This document shows, piece after piece, positions 24,002-43,116 of a stretch of 50,936 nucleotides of DNA. The notes beneath the pieces were generated by a model. It worked only from the letters and a program-made list of their open reading frames with translations, ran no database searches and had not been told where the DNA came from. Each line of letters opens with the position of its first letter. Positions within the stretch are counted from its first letter, which is position 1. This DNA is from an uncultured Methanosarcinales archaeon (GTDB lineage Archaea > Nanobdellota > Nanobdellia > Woesearchaeales > GW2011-AR9). Made by a program: the position numbers and the translations under genes. The DNA is taken from assembly GCA_964439765.1 (NCBI GenBank), contig CAYTOG010000002.1, forward strand, positions 1-50,936, written 5' to 3'.

Positions 24002-25267
24002 ATGGTAGATCTTGGTGGTGTAGTTAGAAAATTATTCAGGACTTCTTTTGAAGGTTCAATGCATGTTATTACTGGACCAGTTGGTTCTAAGAAAAATGAA
24101 GCACTTTCTGCTCATCTTGACCCCCTTATTGACAGTGGTCGGATGGCAAAATGGGGTGGCGTTATTGTTTCTCATCCAATGGAAGGAGAACAAGTTACAG
24201 ATCGGCACAAGGCAGACTTAGTTACCTCTTCAGCTCAAGAAGTTTATAGCCTTGTTCTTGAAAGAAATCCAGGAATTGTTGTTATTGCTGGAGCATCACA
24301 ATTTGCTCATTCTGATAGAGATGATGATTTGAGTTCTCTTTGTCGTGAATTGTTTCGTTCTAATCGAAAATTAATATTATCTGGACCGAATTTAGATATT
24401 AATGCAGAACCATATGGTATTATGCCACAATTACTTTCAAGAGCAAGTTCAGTTGAACTAGTCAAGGGAGTATGTCATGTTGGAAAGTATAAACATGCCA
24501 ATAGGAGTATGTACTTTGGTGAAGAATTACGTTCAGTTTGTGCATATCATTTAGAGAATCCTGGTCATGAAGAACCAATAAACCATGGGATGTTACATTT
24601 GTATTTAGGACCAATGTTTTCAGGAAAATCTAGTTCTTGGAGAGCACAACTTTTTAGACTTCGTGAAGAAGGGATTGATCCACTTGTTATTAAGTGGACT
24701 GAAGAGAGATATGCTGCTAAAGTACATGAAGTTGCTTTACACAATGGATTAACTGAAAGGGCACAACCATTCAATAATGTTGATCAAGTTCGTGATTATT
24801 TGAAAAAACACTCAAGAAAAAAAGTTTTATTTTGGGATGAATTACAATTTTTTCCTGGTTGTTATGAATTAATCAAAGAATTGATTCCAAAAGGTTATCG
24901 AATTTATGGAACTGGTTTACCAAGAGATTTTCGTAGAATTGGTTTTAATGATATTCCTAATTTGATGTGTCTAGCTGATGAAATTGAAATTAATGAAGCT
25001 TATTGTGATGAGTGCTCTGATCCTGCCACAGAAAGCCAAAGGGTTGCACGCCGCAGAGGTATTTTTAGAGAAATTGTTACACCCGCAGGATTCCATGGAG
25101 ATTTAGTACTTGCTGGAGGAAGCGAAGATTATCGTCCTACTTGTATCTCCCACCATGATCTTCCAGGTAAGCCGCCTACCCGTTTTCCTATGCCAACATT
25201 TTACTGGGGAAGAAGGAGGATTTTGAATTCAAGAAGTCTTCCAAATCTTTTAAGTCTAGTGAATTAA
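24002..25267 (+). CDS. tandem thymidine kinase: degenerate N-terminal TK-like domain fused to an intact TK domain
   Basis: The C-terminal half (from about 24590) has GPMFSGKSS, WDELQFF, GLPRDFR, CDEC....ATESQR and C..HH. The N-terminal half has the same order of elements but degraded (GPVGSKKN, AGASQF, GPNLDINAEPYG, one Cys/His pair). Confidence 0.7.
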   Translation: MVDLGGVVRKLFRTSFEGSMHVITGPVGSKKNEALSAHLDPLIDSGRMAKWGGVIVSHPMEGEQVTDRHKADLVTSSAQEVYSLVLERNPGIVVIAGASQFAHSDRDDDLSSLCRELFRSNRKLILSGPNLDINAEPYGIMPQLLSRASSVELVKGVCHVGKYKHANRSMYFGEELRSVCAYHLENPGHEEPINHGMLHLYLGPMFSGKSSSWRAQLFRLREEGIDPLVIKWTEERYAAKVHEVALHNGLTERAQPFNNVDQVRDYLKKHSRKKVLFWDELQFFPGCYELIKELIPKGYRIYGTGLPRDFRRIGFNDIPNLMCLADEIEINEAYCDECSDPATESQRVARRRGIFREIVTPAGFHGDLVLAGGSEDYRPTCISHHDLPGKPPTRFPMPTFYWGRRRILNSRSLPNLLSLVN

Positions 25268-27389: not shown

Positions 27390-30300
27390 TTACAATTCAT
27401 CCTTGCGTTTGTGGTAGATAAATGATGCTACACCTATTGTTACAATGATGATTATAGCAACTGCAATTAACAGAGTTTGCATATCAACGTCTAACTCAAA
27501 AGCTGCTTCTTCAATTGGTATTGTTGATTCGTCTTCAACAGCTTCTGTCTCTTCTGCTAATTCTTCAGTTTCGTCTTCAGCTGTTTCTTCTACAACAATT
27601 CTGTTTTCAACAACTGAATCTGTATACGCTATTGCAAAATAACTAAATCCAGGTGTTTCTGCAACATATGTATAACCTGAAGCTGATTCTTCTGTGAGGT
27701 AAGTTGTTAGCTCAACCCATGCGTCGTCAACAAAACGATACATTGCAACATGGCTACCATCAGTCCCTGTTTCACTCAACCAGCTTTTGCTTACTTCAAA
27801 CTCAATTTCAACATCTTCTAAGACTTCTTCAGTTAGTGTTGTGACTGTTGTTATTTGGAATCTGCTGTAAGTATCTACTGCATCATCCCCACCAACTTCA
27901 CCAACACTACTTGGGAATTCTTCTTGTATTGAAACTTTAAGGTAAGGCCCATACACTGTTTCAGTTACATCAAAAGTAATTTCTGAGATTGCAATATTAT
28001 CACTATCTACAGTCATTACAACAGGGTCTGTTGTTTCTAATGATGTCCAAGTTGTTTGACTGGTGTCATCGGAACTACTTGTTGTACCTGAATTGGTTGT
28101 TGCTCCGCCACCGCCACCTCCTCCTGAAGAAGAGGATGAGGATGAAGATGAACTACTACTGCTTGAAGAGCTTGAACCTGAATCTGGTTCTCCACCTGCC
28201 CAATTGGAAAACTCACAGTAAGGAAGACGCCATATACAATAATCTGATCCAGTTTCCATTAGTGTTGATTCTGTTGTCCTATCAACACAAGTGTCTAAAT
28301 CATCATTACAATGCCAAAGTTCATCACATGTTCCAACTCCTGGTATCTTTAATGTACAAGTTTCTGGGTATAGGTTGTTTACAATTTTATCTCTTGTTGC
28401 TGAAATCATTCCAGCATATCCTATTGTGTTCCCTGACGCATCAGTTGTTGTTCCAGATCCCAAAGCATCACTGTCCCCAATATCTCTTATCTTTCTACCA
28501 AAACCAGTTTTTGTTAGACTTGTACCATTGAATTCAATCCATGTTGTGTTATCACTTTTTGCAAGTAAGATAGAACTTCTCCTACCATCTGTGTAATTTG
28601 TTTTCATTCCTGCATTTTCTCCACAAACTGAACCTTGTATATGTTCATATACATTGTCTTGATCAAGGTCGTAACTTACATCCCAACCTGTTGGTGCTTC
28701 AATTCTACTAATGAAGTCACAGAATGCACAAGTTGCATCTGTTTCTGTTTTTAGTTCCGTACATTTACTGATTCCACATTTGTTCTGATCATCACATACT
28801 TCAATTCTAAAGTAATATGATGTGTCAGGTTCTAAATTAGAACTAAGAGAGTATATTCCAGCATCATTATAGATTTCACCAACATGAGGCAGCCTATATT
28901 CTCGAATACTGCTACTTGTTACACCCCTATCATAAATAATTGTATCTAAAATAGTACAAGTATTATCAGCACCATAAAAGTGCAATGTTCCATTTGCTGG
29001 TTTATCAGTTATGTACACTATTAATGCACTATCTCGGTATAATTCTTTACTAATTGCAACAACCTTTGGAGTTCTTGTATCTTCATATCCAGTTGCATGA
29101 ACTCCGAACTTATTTGCCGTACAATATGGGTGGTTGTAACATGAATACTCAGCGCAACCAGCTTCTGTCCAACAATCAGCTGTAAATTCAATATATCCCT
29201 TACTTGCTTTATCTTGCCCATAGTTACTTCCATTTGATTTCTTTGAAAGATCTAATGTATCAAGACTAAAGTCTACTGAACCTGGTGTTACAAAACCTGG
29301 CGATGCTGTATCACTTGGGTTTGTTATGTTCATTGATTCATTAGCTGTTGCTACTTCAACTCTAATATCAATTCCTGGCGTGTACAAATCAGGATATGTA
29401 CTCAAGTCATCTTTATCTATTGCGAGCATTCCACCGCCAATTTCTACACACATTTTCTGATTAAAGGCAGTTGCTTTAACTGGTGTTGTAACCCAATTTC
29501 CATCACTACAACGGTATACTTGAGATTGTTCGGTTGCTACACTATTAGTTCCACTCCAAGTGCTCACAAATGTTGCATAAAATTCGTAACCAACAGCACT
29601 TTCATTATCTTTTTTCGCGCAGCCACCTGTTCTATCACCATCAGTATCCAAATACCAATAATATTTCGTAGCATCCATACCAACAGCACTATTTCCAAAC
29701 ATTTTTACTCCATTACATATCGCAGCTTGACCCATATCAACAACTTGAATTCCAAAGCCAAAAGCATCTCCTAGATCTTTCATTCCAAAACTTATGATGT
29801 CTATGGAATCAGGAGTAGCGTCACCTACACTGTCTGACCCAAGCATAGTTATGGTTCCACCTTCCATGTTTTCAAAGTACTTTGCAGCCATGGCTCCACT
29901 ACACCATCCACCAATCCATTTACAAACAGATGTATTTGTTCCAGTATAATTGAATGATTCACATGATTGGCTATCATCCCCACTGACAAAACAAATTGAT
30001 TCACATATCTCTGCTTTACTATTCCAAGCGCAATGTGTTTCTTCGTCACAAGATGTACTGTTTTCTGCAGTCATACATGAAAATGCTTTTTGTTCACAGA
30101 AACTTCCAAAACTATTCCAGCTACAACTATCAATACTTTCGCAAGTTGTTTGATTAGTAGTATATTGTTGACAATTATCTCCTAATTTAATGTCACAGAA
30201 TGGACTTCCTTCACTAAACCAACCACATCCATTTGTCTCATCACATCCTGTTTGATTTCCATCATATAGTTTACAATCTAAACCATTTCCAGAGTATCCA

Positions 30301-33300
30301 CCATCATCTCCGCCTACTCCTGCATTAGTAGTTGAACCAAATCCTGGAGGATCACAAAATCCTGAAACCCAATTACAACCAATTCCTTCACAACCAGTTT
30401 GATCATTTTTATTCCAACATGAATCAGTTCCTGATGTTACACCTTCGCACCAACTGTCACCCCATTCATTAGTACTCCAATTACACCATTCAGAATTTGT
30501 TGCATTCGTACAAACTGATGAAGATTCATATTGCCAACATGAAAATTTGGAATGGTCACAATAACCTGCATCTTCTCCTTGTGATGCACACCAGCTATCT
30601 TCCATCCAATTACATGGTTTTGCACCATTGCCATCAGCTGTCCCTGCATCTTCACAAGTTGCTGATCCATCACTATCATGTTGTATACAATTATACCATT
30701 CTCCTTCATATGTCCAATCAGGATCACAATAACCTCCTGATTCACTACACCAATCATCAATCATCCATGTGCAATCTGCTATTTCAGAACAAGATGTTGA
30801 ATTTTCAGCATTGAAACAGCTGCTAAAACTTGCATCATCCCAATTTTCTTCACACATTCCACCAAAATCACTATGCCAAACACACCCTGATGCTTCACAA
30901 AATGTTTGATTTGTTCCATCATGGCTCCAACAGTCACTTCCTGGGATATCACACCAACTTCCCCATTGTTCATCAATCCATGTACAATTTCCACTTCCTG
31001 TATCTGTTGTTATACATGTTGCTTCTTCACTTTTTCCAAAGCACTCTTGCCCAACTCCAACAAGTCCACCACCACAAAATGGATCACTATAACACATTGA
31101 ATCTGCACAATCAGTTTTTCCATCATTATTGTTATCTATTCCATCAAAACAGAACTCCATTTGGTCTGCTCCTTGACTTGGTTGACATTTAATTGTCTCT
31201 GTATCACTCCAACTACATTGTGCAGCTAATGCAGAGTCGCCTTTTTTATTTCCATATTGTGTACATTGACTTTGGGAATCACATTTTAAACAACTATCTG
31301 CACAAGTCTTCTCGGATTCTGATGCGCAACGTCCTTTACTTTCATCAGTTGGATAATCTAAATTTACTATCCACTGACAATTTGCATCACTATTTTTACA
31401 GAAATATGATGGTTTATTTGTCTTATCTGCAGCTGTTGAATCTCCCATATGAGTACAACTTCCACAATCTTCATTACATGTTCCAGCAATTCCTTGGACA
31501 AATTCATCTTTTACATTACAAGATCCTAAACCATTTGGCGCAGTTGTATCACTTGTGTACTCACAAAATCCTAAATTTGATCCAACACATGCACTTTTGA
31601 AATCTGTTGCACTACTCCAATTAGTTCCATCTGTTTGATATTCACAAGCATAACATTCTTTGTTACAATTACGTTCTTCATCAAACTTAAGTTCACATCT
31701 TCCCGCAGGAATTGCTATATCTCCTTCACAGTAACTTTCAACAACCCAAATTCCACCTGCGTATTCACAGCTTTGTTCGTTATCAACATAAATTAAGTTC
31801 TCTCTTCCTTCAGTAAATATCTTATCTAGCCTTGCTTCACAATGTTCTGTTCCGTTATTCCACTGACATGGCATATACCATGGAGCACCTGAAATCTGTA
31901 AACAAAGGTCGTCGTCATCGTATGCGTTATAATCTTCACAGAAGCTTGCCCCATCTGGTGGAGTATCAATATCATCGTAGCAATTTGCACTAAATTGATC
32001 TTTTGCACAACTTGATCCTTGCCAGCTACAACAACTGCTCAATGCTGCAATGGAATTACAAAGGCCTGTCGCATTAATGTCGGTACAAGTTAGACCACTT
32101 TCTGAGATTGTTGCATTTGAATTACAAGTTCCTCCCGACCAACTACATCCTTCTGTTTCCCCACATGATGTCTCATTAAAATCAAATATATAACACCCAG
32201 GATTCCATTCTGTATGTATGTTAATTATTCCTAAATCTGCATAAGTAGAACAACTTGATGATGAACTATTCCATGAACATCCATAATCATAACATTCTTT
32301 TTCACTGTTAACATCAGAACAACTTCCAGAGGTTACATCTTCATAACACCAACTTCCATCGGCTTCCCAAGTACATGTTAATCCTGCTGCGTTGTTTACA
32401 CAAGAGTCTTCATCACTTCCATCAAAAGACCAGCACCTAGTTTCTTCACACCAACCAGTTGATGTTGAAGTCTCCCATTTACAATTGCCATTTGCATCAC
32501 AACTGTTTGCATCATCAAAATTCCAACATCCTCTATCATTACAGTAAGGGTCACTCCAAGAACACTCCAAACTATTTGTATTATTTACACAAGCAGTTCC
32601 GTTAGTATAACTAAAATCACTACACCAATAATCTGAACAATATCCATTATCCCATCGACAACTATTGCTTTCACAGGCAGTAGAATTTGTATAATCCCAA
32701 CATCCAGCTTCAGAACAGTATTCATATTGAGTGTTCCATACACAAGTGTTACTGTTATATCCTGTTGCTGCTTCACATGTTGTTTTTGTTGATTGGTCCC
32801 AACAACCTTCTTGATAACAATCTCCCCAAGTACAACCATCTATTGCTGTACAAGCAGAATCTGTTGTTTGTTCCCAACAACTTTTTTCCCATGGGCCCAT
32901 ACAAGGGAATTGGTTATTGTCAGCGTTATAAGTATCTTCCCATACACAAGAAAGTCCTTGAGAGTTGCTTTCACAAGCTGTTTGGTTTGTTCCACCAAAA
33001 GACCAACATTGAACTTCAGTACACCAACCAGAATCAGAAGAACTTTTCCAAGTACATGTTTTGTTTAAATAAGAATCACTTGAAGAATCGTTTGAAGCTT
33101 CACATGCAGTTTGTCCCCATTGAGACCAACATTGTTTTTCTTCACACCAAGATCCCCATGGGTCAGTTTTCCATTTACAATCAGAATTATCTTCACATGT
33201 GGATTCGGTGGAAAAATCCCAACAACTAGAAGACATCGTTGATACTGGCAATCCACCAGAATCAAATTCCGCAACTGCTAACCCAGTTATAGAATTCCCT

Positions 33301-33419
33301 GAATCGAACATTGTTAAGAGGTCTGAATTGCTATCAAGCAAGTTCATTCCGATAAAACCTCCAAGAATAAAAACTACTGCAATTAAGAAAAATACTTTAT
33401 GCGTTCGATCCATACTCAC
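27390..33419 (-). CDS. giant cysteine-rich, membrane-anchored surface protein
   Basis: 2009-aa ORF. Has an N-terminal signal/TM helix, about two dozen 4-Cys modules (C[WYF]..C..CxW..C), a poly-Ser/Gly linker, a PGF-pre-PGF-like domain ending ETPGFSYFAIAY, an acidic spacer, and a C-terminal TM plus KRK. The ORF-track start is GTG 33419; the in-frame ATG at 33413 lies 7 nt after GAGGTG and is the likelier start. Confidence 0.85.
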   Translation of the reverse strand: MSMDRTHKVFFLIAVVFILGGFIGMNLLDSNSDLLTMFDSGNSITGLAVAEFDSGGLPVSTMSSSCWDFSTESTCEDNSDCKWKTDPWGSWCEEKQCWSQWGQTACEASNDSSSDSYLNKTCTWKSSSDSGWCTEVQCWSFGGTNQTACESNSQGLSCVWEDTYNADNNQFPCMGPWEKSCWEQTTDSACTAIDGCTWGDCYQEGCWDQSTKTTCEAATGYNSNTCVWNTQYEYCSEAGCWDYTNSTACESNSCRWDNGYCSDYWCSDFSYTNGTACVNNTNSLECSWSDPYCNDRGCWNFDDANSCDANGNCKWETSTSTGWCEETRCWSFDGSDEDSCVNNAAGLTCTWEADGSWCYEDVTSGSCSDVNSEKECYDYGCSWNSSSSSCSTYADLGIINIHTEWNPGCYIFDFNETSCGETEGCSWSGGTCNSNATISESGLTCTDINATGLCNSIAALSSCCSWQGSSCAKDQFSANCYDDIDTPPDGASFCEDYNAYDDDDLCLQISGAPWYMPCQWNNGTEHCEARLDKIFTEGRENLIYVDNEQSCEYAGGIWVVESYCEGDIAIPAGRCELKFDEERNCNKECYACEYQTDGTNWSSATDFKSACVGSNLGFCEYTSDTTAPNGLGSCNVKDEFVQGIAGTCNEDCGSCTHMGDSTAADKTNKPSYFCKNSDANCQWIVNLDYPTDESKGRCASESEKTCADSCLKCDSQSQCTQYGNKKGDSALAAQCSWSDTETIKCQPSQGADQMEFCFDGIDNNNDGKTDCADSMCYSDPFCGGGLVGVGQECFGKSEEATCITTDTGSGNCTWIDEQWGSWCDIPGSDCWSHDGTNQTFCEASGCVWHSDFGGMCEENWDDASFSSCFNAENSTSCSEIADCTWMIDDWCSESGGYCDPDWTYEGEWYNCIQHDSDGSATCEDAGTADGNGAKPCNWMEDSWCASQGEDAGYCDHSKFSCWQYESSSVCTNATNSEWCNWSTNEWGDSWCEGVTSGTDSCWNKNDQTGCEGIGCNWVSGFCDPPGFGSTTNAGVGGDDGGYSGNGLDCKLYDGNQTGCDETNGCGWFSEGSPFCDIKLGDNCQQYTTNQTTCESIDSCSWNSFGSFCEQKAFSCMTAENSTSCDEETHCAWNSKAEICESICFVSGDDSQSCESFNYTGTNTSVCKWIGGWCSGAMAAKYFENMEGGTITMLGSDSVGDATPDSIDIISFGMKDLGDAFGFGIQVVDMGQAAICNGVKMFGNSAVGMDATKYYWYLDTDGDRTGGCAKKDNESAVGYEFYATFVSTWSGTNSVATEQSQVYRCSDGNWVTTPVKATAFNQKMCVEIGGGMLAIDKDDLSTYPDLYTPGIDIRVEVATANESMNITNPSDTASPGFVTPGSVDFSLDTLDLSKKSNGSNYGQDKASKGYIEFTADCWTEAGCAEYSCYNHPYCTANKFGVHATGYEDTRTPKVVAISKELYRDSALIVYITDKPANGTLHFYGADNTCTILDTIIYDRGVTSSSIREYRLPHVGEIYNDAGIYSLSSNLEPDTSYYFRIEVCDDQNKCGISKCTELKTETDATCAFCDFISRIEAPTGWDVSYDLDQDNVYEHIQGSVCGENAGMKTNYTDGRRSSILLAKSDNTTWIEFNGTSLTKTGFGRKIRDIGDSDALGSGTTTDASGNTIGYAGMISATRDKIVNNLYPETCTLKIPGVGTCDELWHCNDDLDTCVDRTTESTLMETGSDYCIWRLPYCEFSNWAGGEPDSGSSSSSSSSSSSSSSSSSGGGGGGGATTNSGTTSSSDDTSQTTWTSLETTDPVVMTVDSDNIAISEITFDVTETVYGPYLKVSIQEEFPSSVGEVGGDDAVDTYSRFQITTVTTLTEEVLEDVEIEFEVSKSWLSETGTDGSHVAMYRFVDDAWVELTTYLTEESASGYTYVAETPGFSYFAIAYTDSVVENRIVVEETAEDETEELAEETEAVEDESTIPIEEAAFELDVDMQTLLIAVAIIIIVTIGVASFIYHKRKDEL

Positions 33420-33636
33420 CCACCTCTTTTGTACTCAATAATAACCTTGCTTTGTACCACCAATAGCAAAGATCAAATATATTTTATATTATGTATTTTA
33501 ATCTTGAATGATTTAGAGTATATAAATATTCCTTGAGTACAATACTAAATATTATTGAAGTTCTGTTTGGGATAAACAAAAAAAATGTTACAAAAATTGC
33601 CTGAAATGTTGCAAGAATACAAAAATAAAAAATATG

Positions 33637-35443: not shown

Positions 35444-35776
35444 ATGGTAACAGTTCTTGATGAAAAAAGTTTTAACCAACATGTTGTAGAAAAAGGAGAA
35501 TTAATCTTAGTTGACTTTTGGGCAAGTTGGTGTGGTCCTTGTAAAGCACTCGCTCCTGTTCTTGATGATGTTAGCAAAGATGATGATTTTAAGGGTAAAT
35601 TAAAATTCGGTAAGATTAGTACTGAAGATCATCCAGAGGTAGCTCAAGCACACGATATTTCAGGAATTCCTTGTTTGATTATCTTCAAAGATGGAAAAGA
35701 AGTTGATCGAATTGTTGGCTTTAGTCCAAAACCTGTTCTTAAAGGCAAAATCGCTGATATTCTTGCGAAGCTTTGA
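35444..35776 (+). CDS. trxA: thioredoxin
   Basis: 110 aa with the WASWCGPCK active site. Confidence 0.9.
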   Translation: MVTVLDEKSFNQHVVEKGELILVDFWASWCGPCKALAPVLDDVSKDDDFKGKLKFGKISTEDHPEVAQAHDISGIPCLIIFKDGKEVDRIVGFSPKPVLKGKIADILAKL

Positions 35777-42980: not shown

Positions 42981-43006
42981 GGAAGATTGGTTCATAGTGG
43001 TTTATG

Positions 43007-43116
43007 CGCCGGTAGTTTAATGGCTAGAATCCCGGCCTTCCATATGAAGGCTGGCAGCTTTACTGCCTTGCTTTGAAGCAAGCCGGTGATCCGGGTTCAA
43101 ATCCCGGCCGGCGCAC
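43007..43116 (+). tRNA. tRNA-Gly (anticodon UCC) with a 38-nt intron after position 37
   Basis: Hand-folded. Acceptor stem GCGCCGG/CCGGCGC plus discriminator A; D arm GTTT/GAAT; anticodon stem CCGGC/GCCGG; loop C-T-TCC-A; T arm CCGGG-TTCAAAT-CCCGG. The intron spans 43044-43081. A 4-bp helix CTTC (43038-41)/GAAG (43076-79) is flanked by 3-nt bulges carrying both splice sites (BHB-like). Confidence 0.8.

What the first reader, a model, noticed from the sequence alone, without database searches (positions are those of the whole stretch)
27390..33419. 2009-aa surface protein built from roughly two dozen 4-cysteine 'CW...C...CxW...C' modules
Residues about 66-1173 (nt 29901-33224) are a run of 30-45-aa modules with the spacing C-[WYF]-x(4-8)-C-x(4-12)-C-x-W-x(3-10)-C, for example CWDFSTESTCEDNSDCKWKTDPWGSWC and CWSFGGTNQTACESNSQGLSCVW. 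About one residue in nine or ten is Cys. The modules are dense in N-x-S/T sequons and almost free of hydrophobic core stretches.

I do not recognise the module as a named domain. The remaining architecture is an N-terminal signal/TM, a non-repeat beta-rich middle region, a Ser/Gly linker, a PGF-pre-PGF-like domain and a C-terminal TM anchor, which indicates a cell-surface display protein. Giant Cys-rich surface proteins are what one would expect for cell-cell attachment in an episymbiotic archaeon, but that role is inference.
Basis: partly seen in the sequence, partly recalled or inferred. Interest (0 to 1): 0.75.

Follow-up and report, generated by a model that had tools for sequence, protein, structure and literature searches.

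The report
Conserved giant disulfide-rich DPANN surface protein
This gene encodes a real, 2,000-residue, membrane-anchored surface glycoprotein, conserved cysteine for cysteine across Woesearchaeota/Pacearchaeota-type nano-archaea and built largely from an unnamed two-disulfide mini-domain; it is a good candidate for their unknown cell-envelope protein, but its function is untested.

Summary
ORF 27390-33419(-) encodes a 2009-aa (probably 2007-aa) acidic protein with 142 Cys. A module profile finds 21 canonical 4-Cys "C[WFY]…C…CxW…C" modules in two blocks (res 66-432 and 793-1173), not one continuous run. Between them lie 2 degenerate modules, three 6-Cys variants and one acidic double-disulfide repeat. 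It is not an assembly artefact. More than 120 full-length homologues in DPANN MAGs keep the same order of parts, and 141/142 Cys are conserved. Pfam finds nothing for any part, and NCBIfam, PDB sequences and Foldseek recognise no module. The only lead is a non-significant resemblance to the 4-Cys unit of the trypanosome VSG C-terminal domain. Only 213 of 1.84 billion representative proteins carry the module. AlphaFold models each module as a helix plus β-hairpin. Correlated Cys loss indicates C1-C3/C2-C4 disulfides plus one long-range C564-C1599 link. Res 1174-1745 is a confident β-sandwich body, followed by a linker, a PGF-pre-PGF domain (E=7e-19) and a TM anchor. The body and arms are conserved and only the stalk varies. 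I therefore favour a structural envelope or coat role (~0.45) over a host-specific adhesin (~0.3). Both are inference.

The parts
27390..33419 (-). Whole ORF: 2009 aa from the listed GTG, probably 2007 aa from the ATG at 33413. About 218 kDa, pI about 4.05, 142 Cys, 30 N-x-S/T sequons.
33420..33425 (-). AGGTGG Shine-Dalgarno-like motif 6 nt upstream of the ATG at 33413-33411. It argues that the real start is codon 3 of the listed ORF.
   Evidence: read directly from the sequence
33330..33419 (-). N-terminal hydrophobic segment (res about 5-30): a signal peptide or signal anchor. In this protein and a subgroup of homologues it is followed by a linker of about 35 aa (res 31-65, nt 33225-33329). 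Most homologues instead have a ...A-x-A|(N)CW cleavage-type junction.
32124..33224 (-). Module block 1 (arm 1): 11 canonical 4-Cys modules M01-M11 (res 66-432). M01-M09 are joined by uniform 4-residue linkers.
   Evidence: AF2 models a helix plus beta-hairpin per module, pLDDT mostly 70-90.
31830..32123 (-). Two degenerate modules (res 433-530): a 6-Cys unit at 445-480 and a 4-Cys unit at 494-527, both keeping CxW.
31044..31829 (-). Mid region (res 531-792). It holds a beta-hairpin with Cys triplet 551/564/575, then three 6-Cys CxxxCxxC...C...CxW...C units (585-634, 648-698, 706-745). This is the most conserved Cys-rich part (46% pairwise identity excluding C/W).
31728..31730 (-). Codon of Cys564, the odd cysteine of the N-terminal 121. 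It is the inferred disulfide partner of Cys1599.
31074..31160 (-). Acidic double-disulfide-like repeat FCFDGIDNNNDGKTDCADSMCYSDPFC (res 754-782), with a DxDxDG-type loop that probably binds Ca2+. The Ca2+ binding is inference.
   Evidence: NF033662, E=2e-5, 24.1 bits, below the cutoff of 41
29901..31043 (-). Module block 2 (arm 2): 10 canonical modules M12-M21 (res 793-1173) with longer linkers. It includes a disordered Gly-rich hinge at res 1023-1048 (nt 30276-30353).
28185..29900 (-). Non-repeat body (res 1174-1745): a compact assembly of beta-sandwich domains with 21 conserved Cys. AF2 pLDDT is 89.4 and pTM 0.86. This is the most conserved region (50%).
28623..28625 (-). Codon of Cys1599, the odd cysteine of the beta body. 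It is lost together with Cys564 in the same 10 homologues.
28044..28184 (-). Ser/Gly-rich low-complexity linker (res 1746-1792).
27627..28043 (-). PGF-pre-PGF domain (res 1793-1931). Its sequence is poorly conserved among the orthologues (17% pairwise identity).
27393..27626 (-). Acidic stalk (res 1932-1975), a C-terminal TM helix (about 1976-2000) and a basic tail HKRKDEL. There is no PGF tripeptide.

Best explanation
This is the local copy of a conserved, apparently single-copy family of giant type-I surface glycoproteins in Woesearchaeales/Pacearchaeales-type DPANN archaea. Shown or strongly indicated: the protein is exported and stays anchored by a C-terminal TM helix. A variable stalk (acidic linker, PGF-pre-PGF domain, Ser/Gly linker) carries a compact beta-sandwich body. 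The mid region appears to be tied to that body by an extra disulfide, Cys564-Cys1599, which could be within one chain or between neighbouring subunits. Two arms made of an unnamed mini-domain project from the body. Each mini-domain has about 25-35 residues, two disulfides (C1-C3, C2-C4), a helix plus a beta-hairpin, a conserved Trp after C3, and often an N-glycan site before C2. Arm 1 has 11 canonical and 2 degenerate modules, is rod-like with 4-residue linkers, and has a free N-terminal end in most homologues. Arm 2 has 10 modules, is a closed excursion, and contains a Gly-rich hinge. Inferred function: a structural component of the cell envelope, meaning the main surface-coat (S-layer-type or canopy-type) glycoprotein of these organisms, whose envelope protein is unknown. 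The conserved arms and body would mediate self-association, and the disulfides and glycans would give stability. I put this functional reading at about 0.45. The structural and anatomical part I put at about 0.85.
For: Family and conservation: more than 120 full-length homologues at 35-54% identity (the most distant down to 27%), named Woese-/Pace-/Nanoarchaeota. 141/142 Cys are conserved in at least 80% of 80 homologues. The order block1-mid-block2-beta is kept even in the most distant members. The genome scan found 40 loci in 40 different assemblies, including the complete AR15 chromosome. The gene neighbourhood is housekeeping and not syntenic, so this is a stand-alone gene. Structure: the beta body has pLDDT 89.4 and pTM 0.86 and matches only generic FN3/Ig-like arrays. 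The modules are modelled as helix plus hairpin. Disulfides: C1 and C3 of M21 are lost together while C2 and C4 stay. C564 and C1599 are lost in the same 10 sequences, and C1698 and C1728 are lost together. Parity: 121 and 21 Cys in the query. Of the homologues with the pair, 57/69 are odd/odd. All 10 without it have 20 Cys in the beta body, and 6/7 are even/even. Envelope-type features: pI 4.05, 30 sequons, a TM anchor with a basic tail, and a PGF-pre-PGF domain. Conservation gradient: body 46-50%, arms 33-34%, stalk 17%. Open niche: there is 'limited to no information' on Woese-/Pacearchaeota S-layers (PMC5744192).
Against: There are no expression, abundance or imaging data, so the coat or S-layer role is inference. 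Classical archaeal S-layer proteins lack cysteine (PMC5744192), whereas this protein is 7% Cys. No similarity to any known S-layer family was found. Long arrays of small rigid modules are also typical of adhesin stalks, and the wider repeat class occurs in phage tail fibres and a pilin. Single-copy status and universality were not tested genome-wide, because the genome scan used one peptide pattern. The AF2 module model is of moderate confidence (pLDDT 72, pTM 0.34). No coordinates were available, so disulfide geometry and arm shape were not read from the model. The C564/C1599 co-loss may be a single evolutionary event.
Confidence: 0.45

Rival explanations
1. It is a host-attachment adhesin or tether. 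The disulfide-stapled module arms would act as a long rigid stalk that presents a binding surface to the host cell of an episymbiotic archaeon.
For: The organism type is DPANN. The protein is a long array of small rigid modules distal to the membrane anchor. Foldseek matches of the beta body are to adhesin or receptor ectodomain arrays such as Bap, SiiE, Sas6 and FN3 arrays. Related Cys repeats occur in phage tail-fibre-like and pilin-like proteins, which are binding organelles.
Against: The module number and every cysteine are fixed across orders that must have different hosts. The distal arms are more conserved than the stalk. There is no lectin, protease or other recognisable binding or enzymatic domain. 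There is no co-located secretion or attachment operon.
Confidence: 0.3
2. It is a protective glycocalyx or decoy coat analogous to the trypanosome VSG or Giardia VSP coats. It would be a dense layer of disulfide-rich glycoprotein whose job is shielding, for example against viruses, proteases or host defences, rather than lattice formation or adhesion.
For: The module shares four Cys, a conserved aromatic residue and a helix/strand make-up with the VSG C-terminal structured region. 5m4t (VSG CTD) is the only PDB hit of the module profile (E=0.47). A module-bearing mucin-like protein hits PF10659. The protein has many sequons.
Against: The loci found were one per assembly and strongly conserved, with no sign of a variable multigene family. 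The VSG resemblance is statistically non-significant.
Confidence: 0.08
3. The cysteines are metal ligands or redox centres (Zn, Fe-S, or extracellular electron or sulfur chemistry) rather than disulfides.
For: The Cys content is very high in a protein from organisms that often live in anoxic habitats. CxxxCxxC motifs occur in the mid region.
Against: Cysteines are lost in pairs, not in quartets, and parity is kept. The spacing (C-x9-C-x5-16-C-x7-11-C) is unlike metal knuckles. The protein is extracellular and glycosylation-prone. No metal-binding family matched.
Confidence: 0.03
4. It is an artefact: a mis-assembled or collapsed repeat array, or a spurious ORF.
For: Repeat-rich long ORFs in metagenome assemblies are a known source of artefacts (general knowledge).
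Against: The modules are only 60-85% identical over 20-44 nt at the DNA level. The ORF is collinear, residue for residue, with more than 120 independent assemblies, including a complete chromosome.
Confidence: 0.01

Closest known systems
Structured 4-Cys region of the Trypanosoma brucei VSG C-terminal domain (Pfam PF10659; PDB 1XU6, 2JWG, 2JWH, 5M4T)
   Same: Both are small units of about 25-40 aa with four conserved Cys (two disulfides), a conserved aromatic residue and a helix plus beta-strand core. Both occur once or twice in tandem next to the membrane anchor of a surface glycoprotein (PMC12226131). 5m4t_A is the only PDB sequence the module profile touches. A module-bearing mucin-like protein (P0127) passes the PF10659 threshold.
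   Different: There is no significant sequence match from the DPANN protein to PF10659. The 5m4t hit has E=0.47. Foldseek did not recover any VSG CTD, and P0127 does not hit VSG chains directly. Here the unit is repeated 21 or more times, lies distal to the membrane, and the organism is an archaeon.
Archaeal C-terminally anchored S-layer and surface glycoproteins (e.g. the haloarchaeal S-layer glycoprotein; PGF-pre-PGF / PGF-CTERM proteins, TIGR04213)
   Same: Shared features are a Sec-type N-terminus, an acidic and sequon-rich ectodomain, a low-complexity linker near the membrane, a PGF-pre-PGF domain (E=7e-19) and a C-terminal TM helix with a basic tail. The envelope-protein role is open for this lineage.
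   Different: There is no PGF tripeptide or PGF-CTERM match. The protein is 7% Cys, whereas classical S-layer proteins lack Cys. No homology to known S-layer domains was found. The ectodomain is built from an unnamed mini-domain.
Giant repeat adhesins with beta-sandwich arrays (Bap, SiiE, FN3/Ig arrays)
   Same: The beta body (res 1174-1745) gives Foldseek matches to these arrays (E=3e-5 to 2e-3). The overall logic is also shared: a long, repeat-built, membrane- or wall-anchored ectodomain.
   Different: TM-scores are about 0.15, which is generic fold similarity only. The repeats that dominate this protein are disulfide mini-domains, not Ig-like domains. The repeat number is fixed rather than variable.
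NCBIfam NF033662 acidic double-disulfide repeat
   Same: Res 754-782 (FCFDGIDNNNDGKTDCADSMCYSDPFC) aligns to positions 4-32 of the 32-position model. A second copy is visible in the family consensus within the beta body.
   Different: The score of 24.1 bits is below the curated cutoff of 41. It is a single element and not the repeat that builds the protein.
Unnamed CxW Cys-repeats in phage tail-fibre-like, prepilin-like, lipoprotein and mucin-like proteins (P0164, P0218, P0232, P0199, P0127)
   Same: The motif is the same: C-x-x-[FY]-x(4-6)-C-x(4-6)-C-x-W-x(3-8)-C. These proteins are detected by the module profile at E between 1e-34 and 1e-7. They too are extracellular fibrous proteins.
   Different: They have no similarity to the mid or beta regions of this family. 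Their repeats are often packed so that C4 doubles as the next C1. These proteins are also unnamed and uncharacterised.

Membership tests
PGF-pre-PGF domain proteins (TIGR04213) | Match to the TIGR04213 model above the curated cutoff | tested here: met
   68.3 bits against a cutoff of 28, E=7.2e-19, res 1793-1931 covering model positions 15-152 of 153
PGF-CTERM / archaeosortase A substrates | C-terminal Pro-Gly-Phe motif followed by a TM helix and a basic tail | tested here: not met
   The C-terminus is ...DVDMQTLLIAVAIIIIVTIGVASFIYHKRKDEL. The TM helix and basic tail are present but there is no PGF. No PGF-CTERM model was reported by NCBIfam or Pfam.
Archaeal S-layer glycoprotein | Exported, membrane-anchored, acidic, N-glycosylation-prone ectodomain | tested here: met
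   N- and C-terminal hydrophobic segments only, pI 4.05, 30 sequons
Archaeal S-layer glycoprotein | Homology to a known S-layer protein family | tested here: not met
   No Pfam hit. The only NCBIfam hits are PGF-pre-PGF and a weak repeat. There were no PDB sequence hits and only generic Foldseek hits.
Archaeal S-layer glycoprotein | Little or no cysteine (typical composition) | tested here: not met
   7.1% Cys. The review states that classical S-layer proteins lack cysteines.
Archaeal S-layer glycoprotein | Most abundant envelope protein, forming a 2-D lattice | not testable with these tools
   This needs proteomics or cryo-ET of an enrichment. No usable expression data were found.
VSG C-terminal domain (PF10659) | Significant match to the family model | tested here: not met
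   0 Pfam families for the whole protein at E<=1 and for separate regions at E<=10
VSG C-terminal domain (PF10659) | Four conserved Cys, a conserved aromatic residue and a helix/beta-strand mini-fold | tested here: inconclusive
   The pattern and the AF2 secondary structure agree. However, the module profile hits 5m4t only at E=0.47, and Foldseek finds no VSG CTD.
NF033662 acidic double-disulfide repeat proteins | Score above the curated cutoff (41 bits), normally from several repeats | tested here: not met
   One stretch, 24.1 bits
EGF-like, TNFR, furin-like or Paramecium/Giardia-type Cys-rich repeats | Match to the corresponding Pfam models or to solved folds | tested here: not met
   No Pfam hit at E<=10. 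The best Foldseek PDB hit for the module region has E=4.9, and the best in the viral library has E=0.12.
Ig-like/FN3 repeat adhesins | Tandem beta-sandwich domains with specific similarity to an adhesin family | tested here: inconclusive
   Foldseek E=3e-5 to 2e-3 against Bap, SiiE and FN3 arrays, but TM about 0.15 and 5-11% identity. There is no Pfam Ig/FN3 hit.

The most novel reading that the evidence does not exclude
This family is the long-missing principal envelope (S-layer or canopy) protein of Woesearchaeales/Pacearchaeales. It would be built on a previously undescribed two-disulfide mini-domain fold and cross-linked through the conserved unpaired pair Cys564/Cys1599, possibly between subunits, giving a covalently stapled coat. 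That would be an S-layer architecture unlike any described, with about 71 disulfides per chain. It would also imply an extracytoplasmic oxidative-folding system in these reduced, often anaerobic symbionts.
Probability: 0.25. Interest if true: 0.8.

Novelty: new variant of a known kind. Interest (0 to 1): 0.62.

Why it matters
Woesearchaeota and Pacearchaeota are among the most widespread uncultured archaea, and nothing is known about their cell envelope or how they contact other cells. This is a 218-kDa protein kept almost cysteine for cysteine across the lineage, so it is a prime handle on that question. It gives a concrete target for metaproteomics, antibody or cryo-ET labelling, and recombinant structure work. 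It also defines a new small disulfide-rich domain that is rare (213 of 1.84 billion representative proteins). The same motif turns up in phage tail fibres, a pilin and a protist-like mucin, which suggests a general-purpose rigid extracellular building block. Finally, up to 71 disulfides in one exported protein raises the question of how these minimal, mostly anaerobic cells carry out oxidative folding.

Tried and rejected
(1) Known-domain assignment failed. Pfam on the whole protein and on five separate regions at E<=10 gave nothing real; the CoA_transf_3 and DUF7481 hits at E=0.18-0.3 are noise. PHROGs also gave nothing.

(2) PDB by sequence gave only spurious low-complexity hits.

(3) Foldseek of the module model against PDB and BFVD gave nothing significant. 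Foldseek of the beta body gave only generic FN3/Ig arrays.

(4) An operon or synteny clue was sought and not found. The neighbours are PGI, transaldolase, thymidine kinase, TFS, Nth, GpsA and thioredoxin, and they are not shared with the homologues' contigs.

(5) The literature searches found no description of this family. The supplements that might have linked it to expression or family tables were not held or were truncated.

(6) The direct P0127-to-VSG structure link failed, so the VSG relationship stays a lead.

(8) A simple segmental duplication of arm 1 into arm 2 is not evident. Only scattered cross-arm best matches appear, such as M01~M16~M12 and M11~M18.

(9) I rejected a TATA-box or promoter claim for the upstream region, because it is too AT-rich to judge.

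Full report
OBSERVATION. The ORF at 27390..33419 on the minus strand exists and encodes 2009 aa. An AGGTGG motif lies 6 nt upstream of the in-frame ATG at 33413. The real start is therefore probably codon 3, giving 2007 aa. The protein has 142 Cys (7.1%). Res 66-1173 contain 121 Cys (10.9%). CxW occurs 25 times in that region, against 6.4 ± 2.3 (maximum 16) in composition-preserving shuffles. A profile built from the modules finds 21 complete copies: 11 in res 66-432 and 10 in res 793-1173. It also finds degenerate copies at 444-471 and 491-527.

The run is interrupted by res 531-792. That region contains a β-hairpin with a Cys triplet and three 6-Cys units of the form CxxxCxxC…C…CxW…C. It also contains one element resembling NCBIfam's acidic double-disulfide repeat, at 24 bits against a cutoff of 41.

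Only two hydrophobic segments exist, one at each end of the protein. The protein is about 218 kDa with a pI of about 4.05. TIGR04213 (PGF-pre-PGF) matches res 1793-1931 at E=7e-19. Sequons are only mildly enriched over composition (22 against 16.4 ± 3.5). They do recur at one position, just before C2, in about 46% of module-by-homologue cells.

NOT AN ARTEFACT. At the DNA level the repeats are 60-85% identical over only 20-44 nt, and TRF finds no array. A search of 5.8 billion proteins returns more than 120 full-length homologues. Most are 1,800-2,100 aa with 35-54% identity, and the most distant fall to 27%. Those that carry a source name are called Woesearchaeota, Pacearchaeota, Nanoarchaeota, Aenigmarchaeota or simply 'archaeon'. 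All are labelled hypothetical or 'PGF-pre-PGF domain-containing'. They share the same statistics: about 140-160 Cys, about 24-28 CxW, a signal peptide followed directly by (N)CW, and a C-terminal TM with a basic tail.

In a MAFFT alignment with 80 of these homologues, 141 of the 142 Cys are conserved in at least 80% of sequences, and most in 100%. Even the most distant members keep the order block 1 → mid → block 2 → β body. Variants only add extra N-terminal modules (up to 275 Cys in 2,967 aa) or other N-terminal domains. A scan of GTDB species genomes with one conserved peptide pattern found 40 loci in 40 different assemblies. These include the complete chromosome of archaeon GW2011_AR15, with 58% identity in the β body and a 1951-aa ORF. 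The neighbours in the window are housekeeping genes and are not shared with the homologues' contigs, so this is a stand-alone gene.

WHAT THE PARTS ARE. An AlphaFold2 model of res 1174-1745, built with a 39-sequence alignment, is confident (pLDDT 89.4, pTM 0.86) and almost all β. Foldseek against the PDB gives only generic FN3/Ig-like arrays such as Bap, cytokine receptors, LAR and SiiE. E-values reach 3e-5 but TM-scores are about 0.15. This means a compact multi-β-sandwich body with no specific solved relative and no enzyme fold.

The model of res 60-1180 has pLDDT 72 and pTM 0.34, as expected for a chain of small domains. Most modules score 70-90. Each module reads as a short turn at C1-W, an α-helix carrying C2, and a β-hairpin with C3-x-W on strand 1 and C4 at the end of strand 2. 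Foldseek finds no match in the PDB (best E=4.9) or in BFVD (best E=0.12). Pfam gives nothing for any region even at E≤10. PDB sequence searches give nothing significant.

DISULFIDES, FROM EVOLUTION.

- In module M21, C1 and C3 are replaced together (CF→GF, CxW→[FY]xW) in at least eight homologues, while C2 and C4 remain. This indicates C1-C3 / C2-C4 pairing.
- C1698 and C1728 are lost together.
- C564 (mid region) and C1599 (β body) are 1,035 residues apart, yet they are lost in exactly the same 10 homologues.

Parity agrees independently. The query has 121 Cys before res 1174 and 21 in the β body, both odd numbers. The odd N-terminal cysteine falls in the triplet 551/564/575. Among homologues with both residues, 57 of 69 are odd/odd. 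All 10 that lack them have exactly 20 Cys in the β body, and 6 of 7 are even/even.

Cysteines are therefore lost in pairs, which fits disulfides and not metal sites. One disulfide most likely ties the mid region to the β body, or ties neighbouring subunits together. If it is intramolecular, block 2 is a closed excursion. Its disordered Gly-rich segment (res 1023-1048) would then be a natural hinge. Block 1 modules M01-M09 are joined by uniform 4-residue linkers, which suggests a rigid rod.

HOW COMMON IS THE MODULE. A 29-position profile of 109 modules (A5) was searched against 1.84 billion representative proteins. It finds 213 proteins at E≤1e-3 (80 at ≤1e-10 and 12 at ≤1e-30). Most are this family or fragments of it.

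A minority are unrelated proteins that carry the same motif:
- P0127, a mucin-like protein of eukaryotic appearance with 7 modules separated by Thr/Pro linkers;
- P0199, a bacterial lipoprotein with about 19 repeats;
- P0232, a prepilin-like protein;
- P0164 and P0218, which have phage tail-fibre N-terminal domains.

P0127 passes the Pfam threshold for PF10659, the trypanosome VSG C-terminal domain (26.3 bits against 21.4). The only PDB sequence touched by the module profile is the VSG MITat1.1 CTD, 5m4t, at E=0.47. VSG CTD structured regions are described as 4-Cys units with a conserved aromatic residue and a conserved helix/strand fold (PMC12226131). This resemblance is a lead and not a membership. 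The DPANN protein itself does not hit PF10659. P0127 does not hit VSG chains. Foldseek did not recover VSG CTDs.

FUNCTION (INFERENCE). Pairwise identity excluding Cys and Trp is 46-50% in the mid and β body, 33-34% in the two arms, and only 17-21% in the PGF-pre-PGF domain and stalk. The fixed module number, the invariant cysteines and the conserved distal parts hold across lineages that must differ in habitat and partner. This argues for a constrained structural or self-associating role, and against a rapidly adapting host-specific adhesin.

The overall design is that of archaeal envelope glycoproteins: an acidic, sequon-rich ectodomain, a low-complexity linker, a PGF-pre-PGF domain, and a TM anchor with a basic tail. 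No S-layer protein is known for Woese- or Pacearchaeota (PMC5744192). I therefore rank 'principal surface-coat or S-layer-type protein' first, at about 0.45. Against it, classical S-layer proteins lack Cys, nothing links this family to known S-layer families, and no abundance data could be found.

The adhesin or tether reading (about 0.3) remains viable. Modular rigid stalks and β-sandwich arrays are adhesin-like, and the wider repeat class occurs in binding organelles. A VSG/VSP-like shielding coat (about 0.08), metal or redox chemistry (about 0.03) and an artefact (about 0.01) are less likely.

NOVELTY. I found no paper that describes the family. The kind of object, a C-terminally anchored repeat-built archaeal surface glycoprotein, is known. 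The building block, the two-arm architecture with a long-range disulfide, and the extreme Cys conservation are new. I rate it a new variant of a known kind, with interest 0.62.

Noticed in passing
window 43006-43115 (+): Rfam finds a 110-nt tRNA (56.6 bits) that ARAGORN misses. It is presumably an intron-containing archaeal tRNA.
   Followed up: no
window 33411-33425 (-): The listed GTG start (33419) abuts an AGGTGG motif. The ATG at 33413 has ideal 6-nt spacing from that motif, so the protein is probably 2007 aa.
   Followed up: partly
proteins P0164, P0218, P0172, P0186, P0196, P0210: A group of proteins of 400-900 aa has phage tail-fibre-type N-termini (PHROGs, PF12789), tightly packed CS-x-F-x-GD-x3-C-x4-GC-[ST]-W repeats and a conserved C-terminus (C-[SG]-G-[ST]-Y-x3-[KR]-x-W). 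It looks like an unnamed Cys-repeat shaft in tail fibres.
   Followed up: partly
protein P0127 (850 aa): This is a eukaryote-like mucin with 7 copies of SCFSxxDQAACEAxxxSCQWSTxYGFGFC separated by Thr/Pro-rich linkers, a TM helix and a Pro-rich tail. It passes the Pfam threshold for the trypanosome VSG C-terminal domain.
   Followed up: partly
homologues P0014, P0015, P0041, P0052, P0055, P0062, P0095, P0098 and others: Many orthologues start their C-terminal TM helix with a conserved [LS]-x-W-[LI]-W-[IL] ('WLW') motif. Several others end in a His-rich tail (YYHGHHH[VI]K...; P0025, P0030, P0096, P0121). These may be sorting or cytoplasmic-interaction signals. The window's protein has neither.
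   Followed up: no
homologues P0107, P0109, P0110, P0111, P0114, P0121, P0123, P0192: A subfamily is expanded to 2,500-3,170 aa, with up to 275 Cys and 42-52 CxW motifs. The expansion comes from extra modules added N-terminally to the conserved core.
   Followed up: partly
window 29121-29174 (-), res 1416-1433: The family consensus here is a second acidic double-disulfide repeat (CFNxxDDDxDGxxDCxDWxCxxxxxC). This protein keeps the four Cys but has lost the acidic DxDxDG loop (CWTEAGCAEYSCYNHPYC).
   Followed up: no
window 35444-35776 (+): A 110-aa thioredoxin gene lies 2 kb upstream of the Cys-rich gene. It has no obvious export signal, so a link to oxidative folding is unlikely, but this was not tested.
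   Followed up: no
window 24002-25267 (+): A thymidine kinase domain (res 196-385) sits in a 421-aa ORF with an unassigned N-terminal extension of about 195 aa.
   Followed up: no
window 33225-33419 (-), res 1-65; homologues P0018, P0019, P0036, P0062: This protein and a subgroup of orthologues have a hydrophobic N-terminal segment followed by a linker of about 35-40 aa before the first module, instead of an A-x-A|NCW junction. The N-terminus may stay membrane-anchored, which would tether arm 1 at both ends.
   Followed up: no
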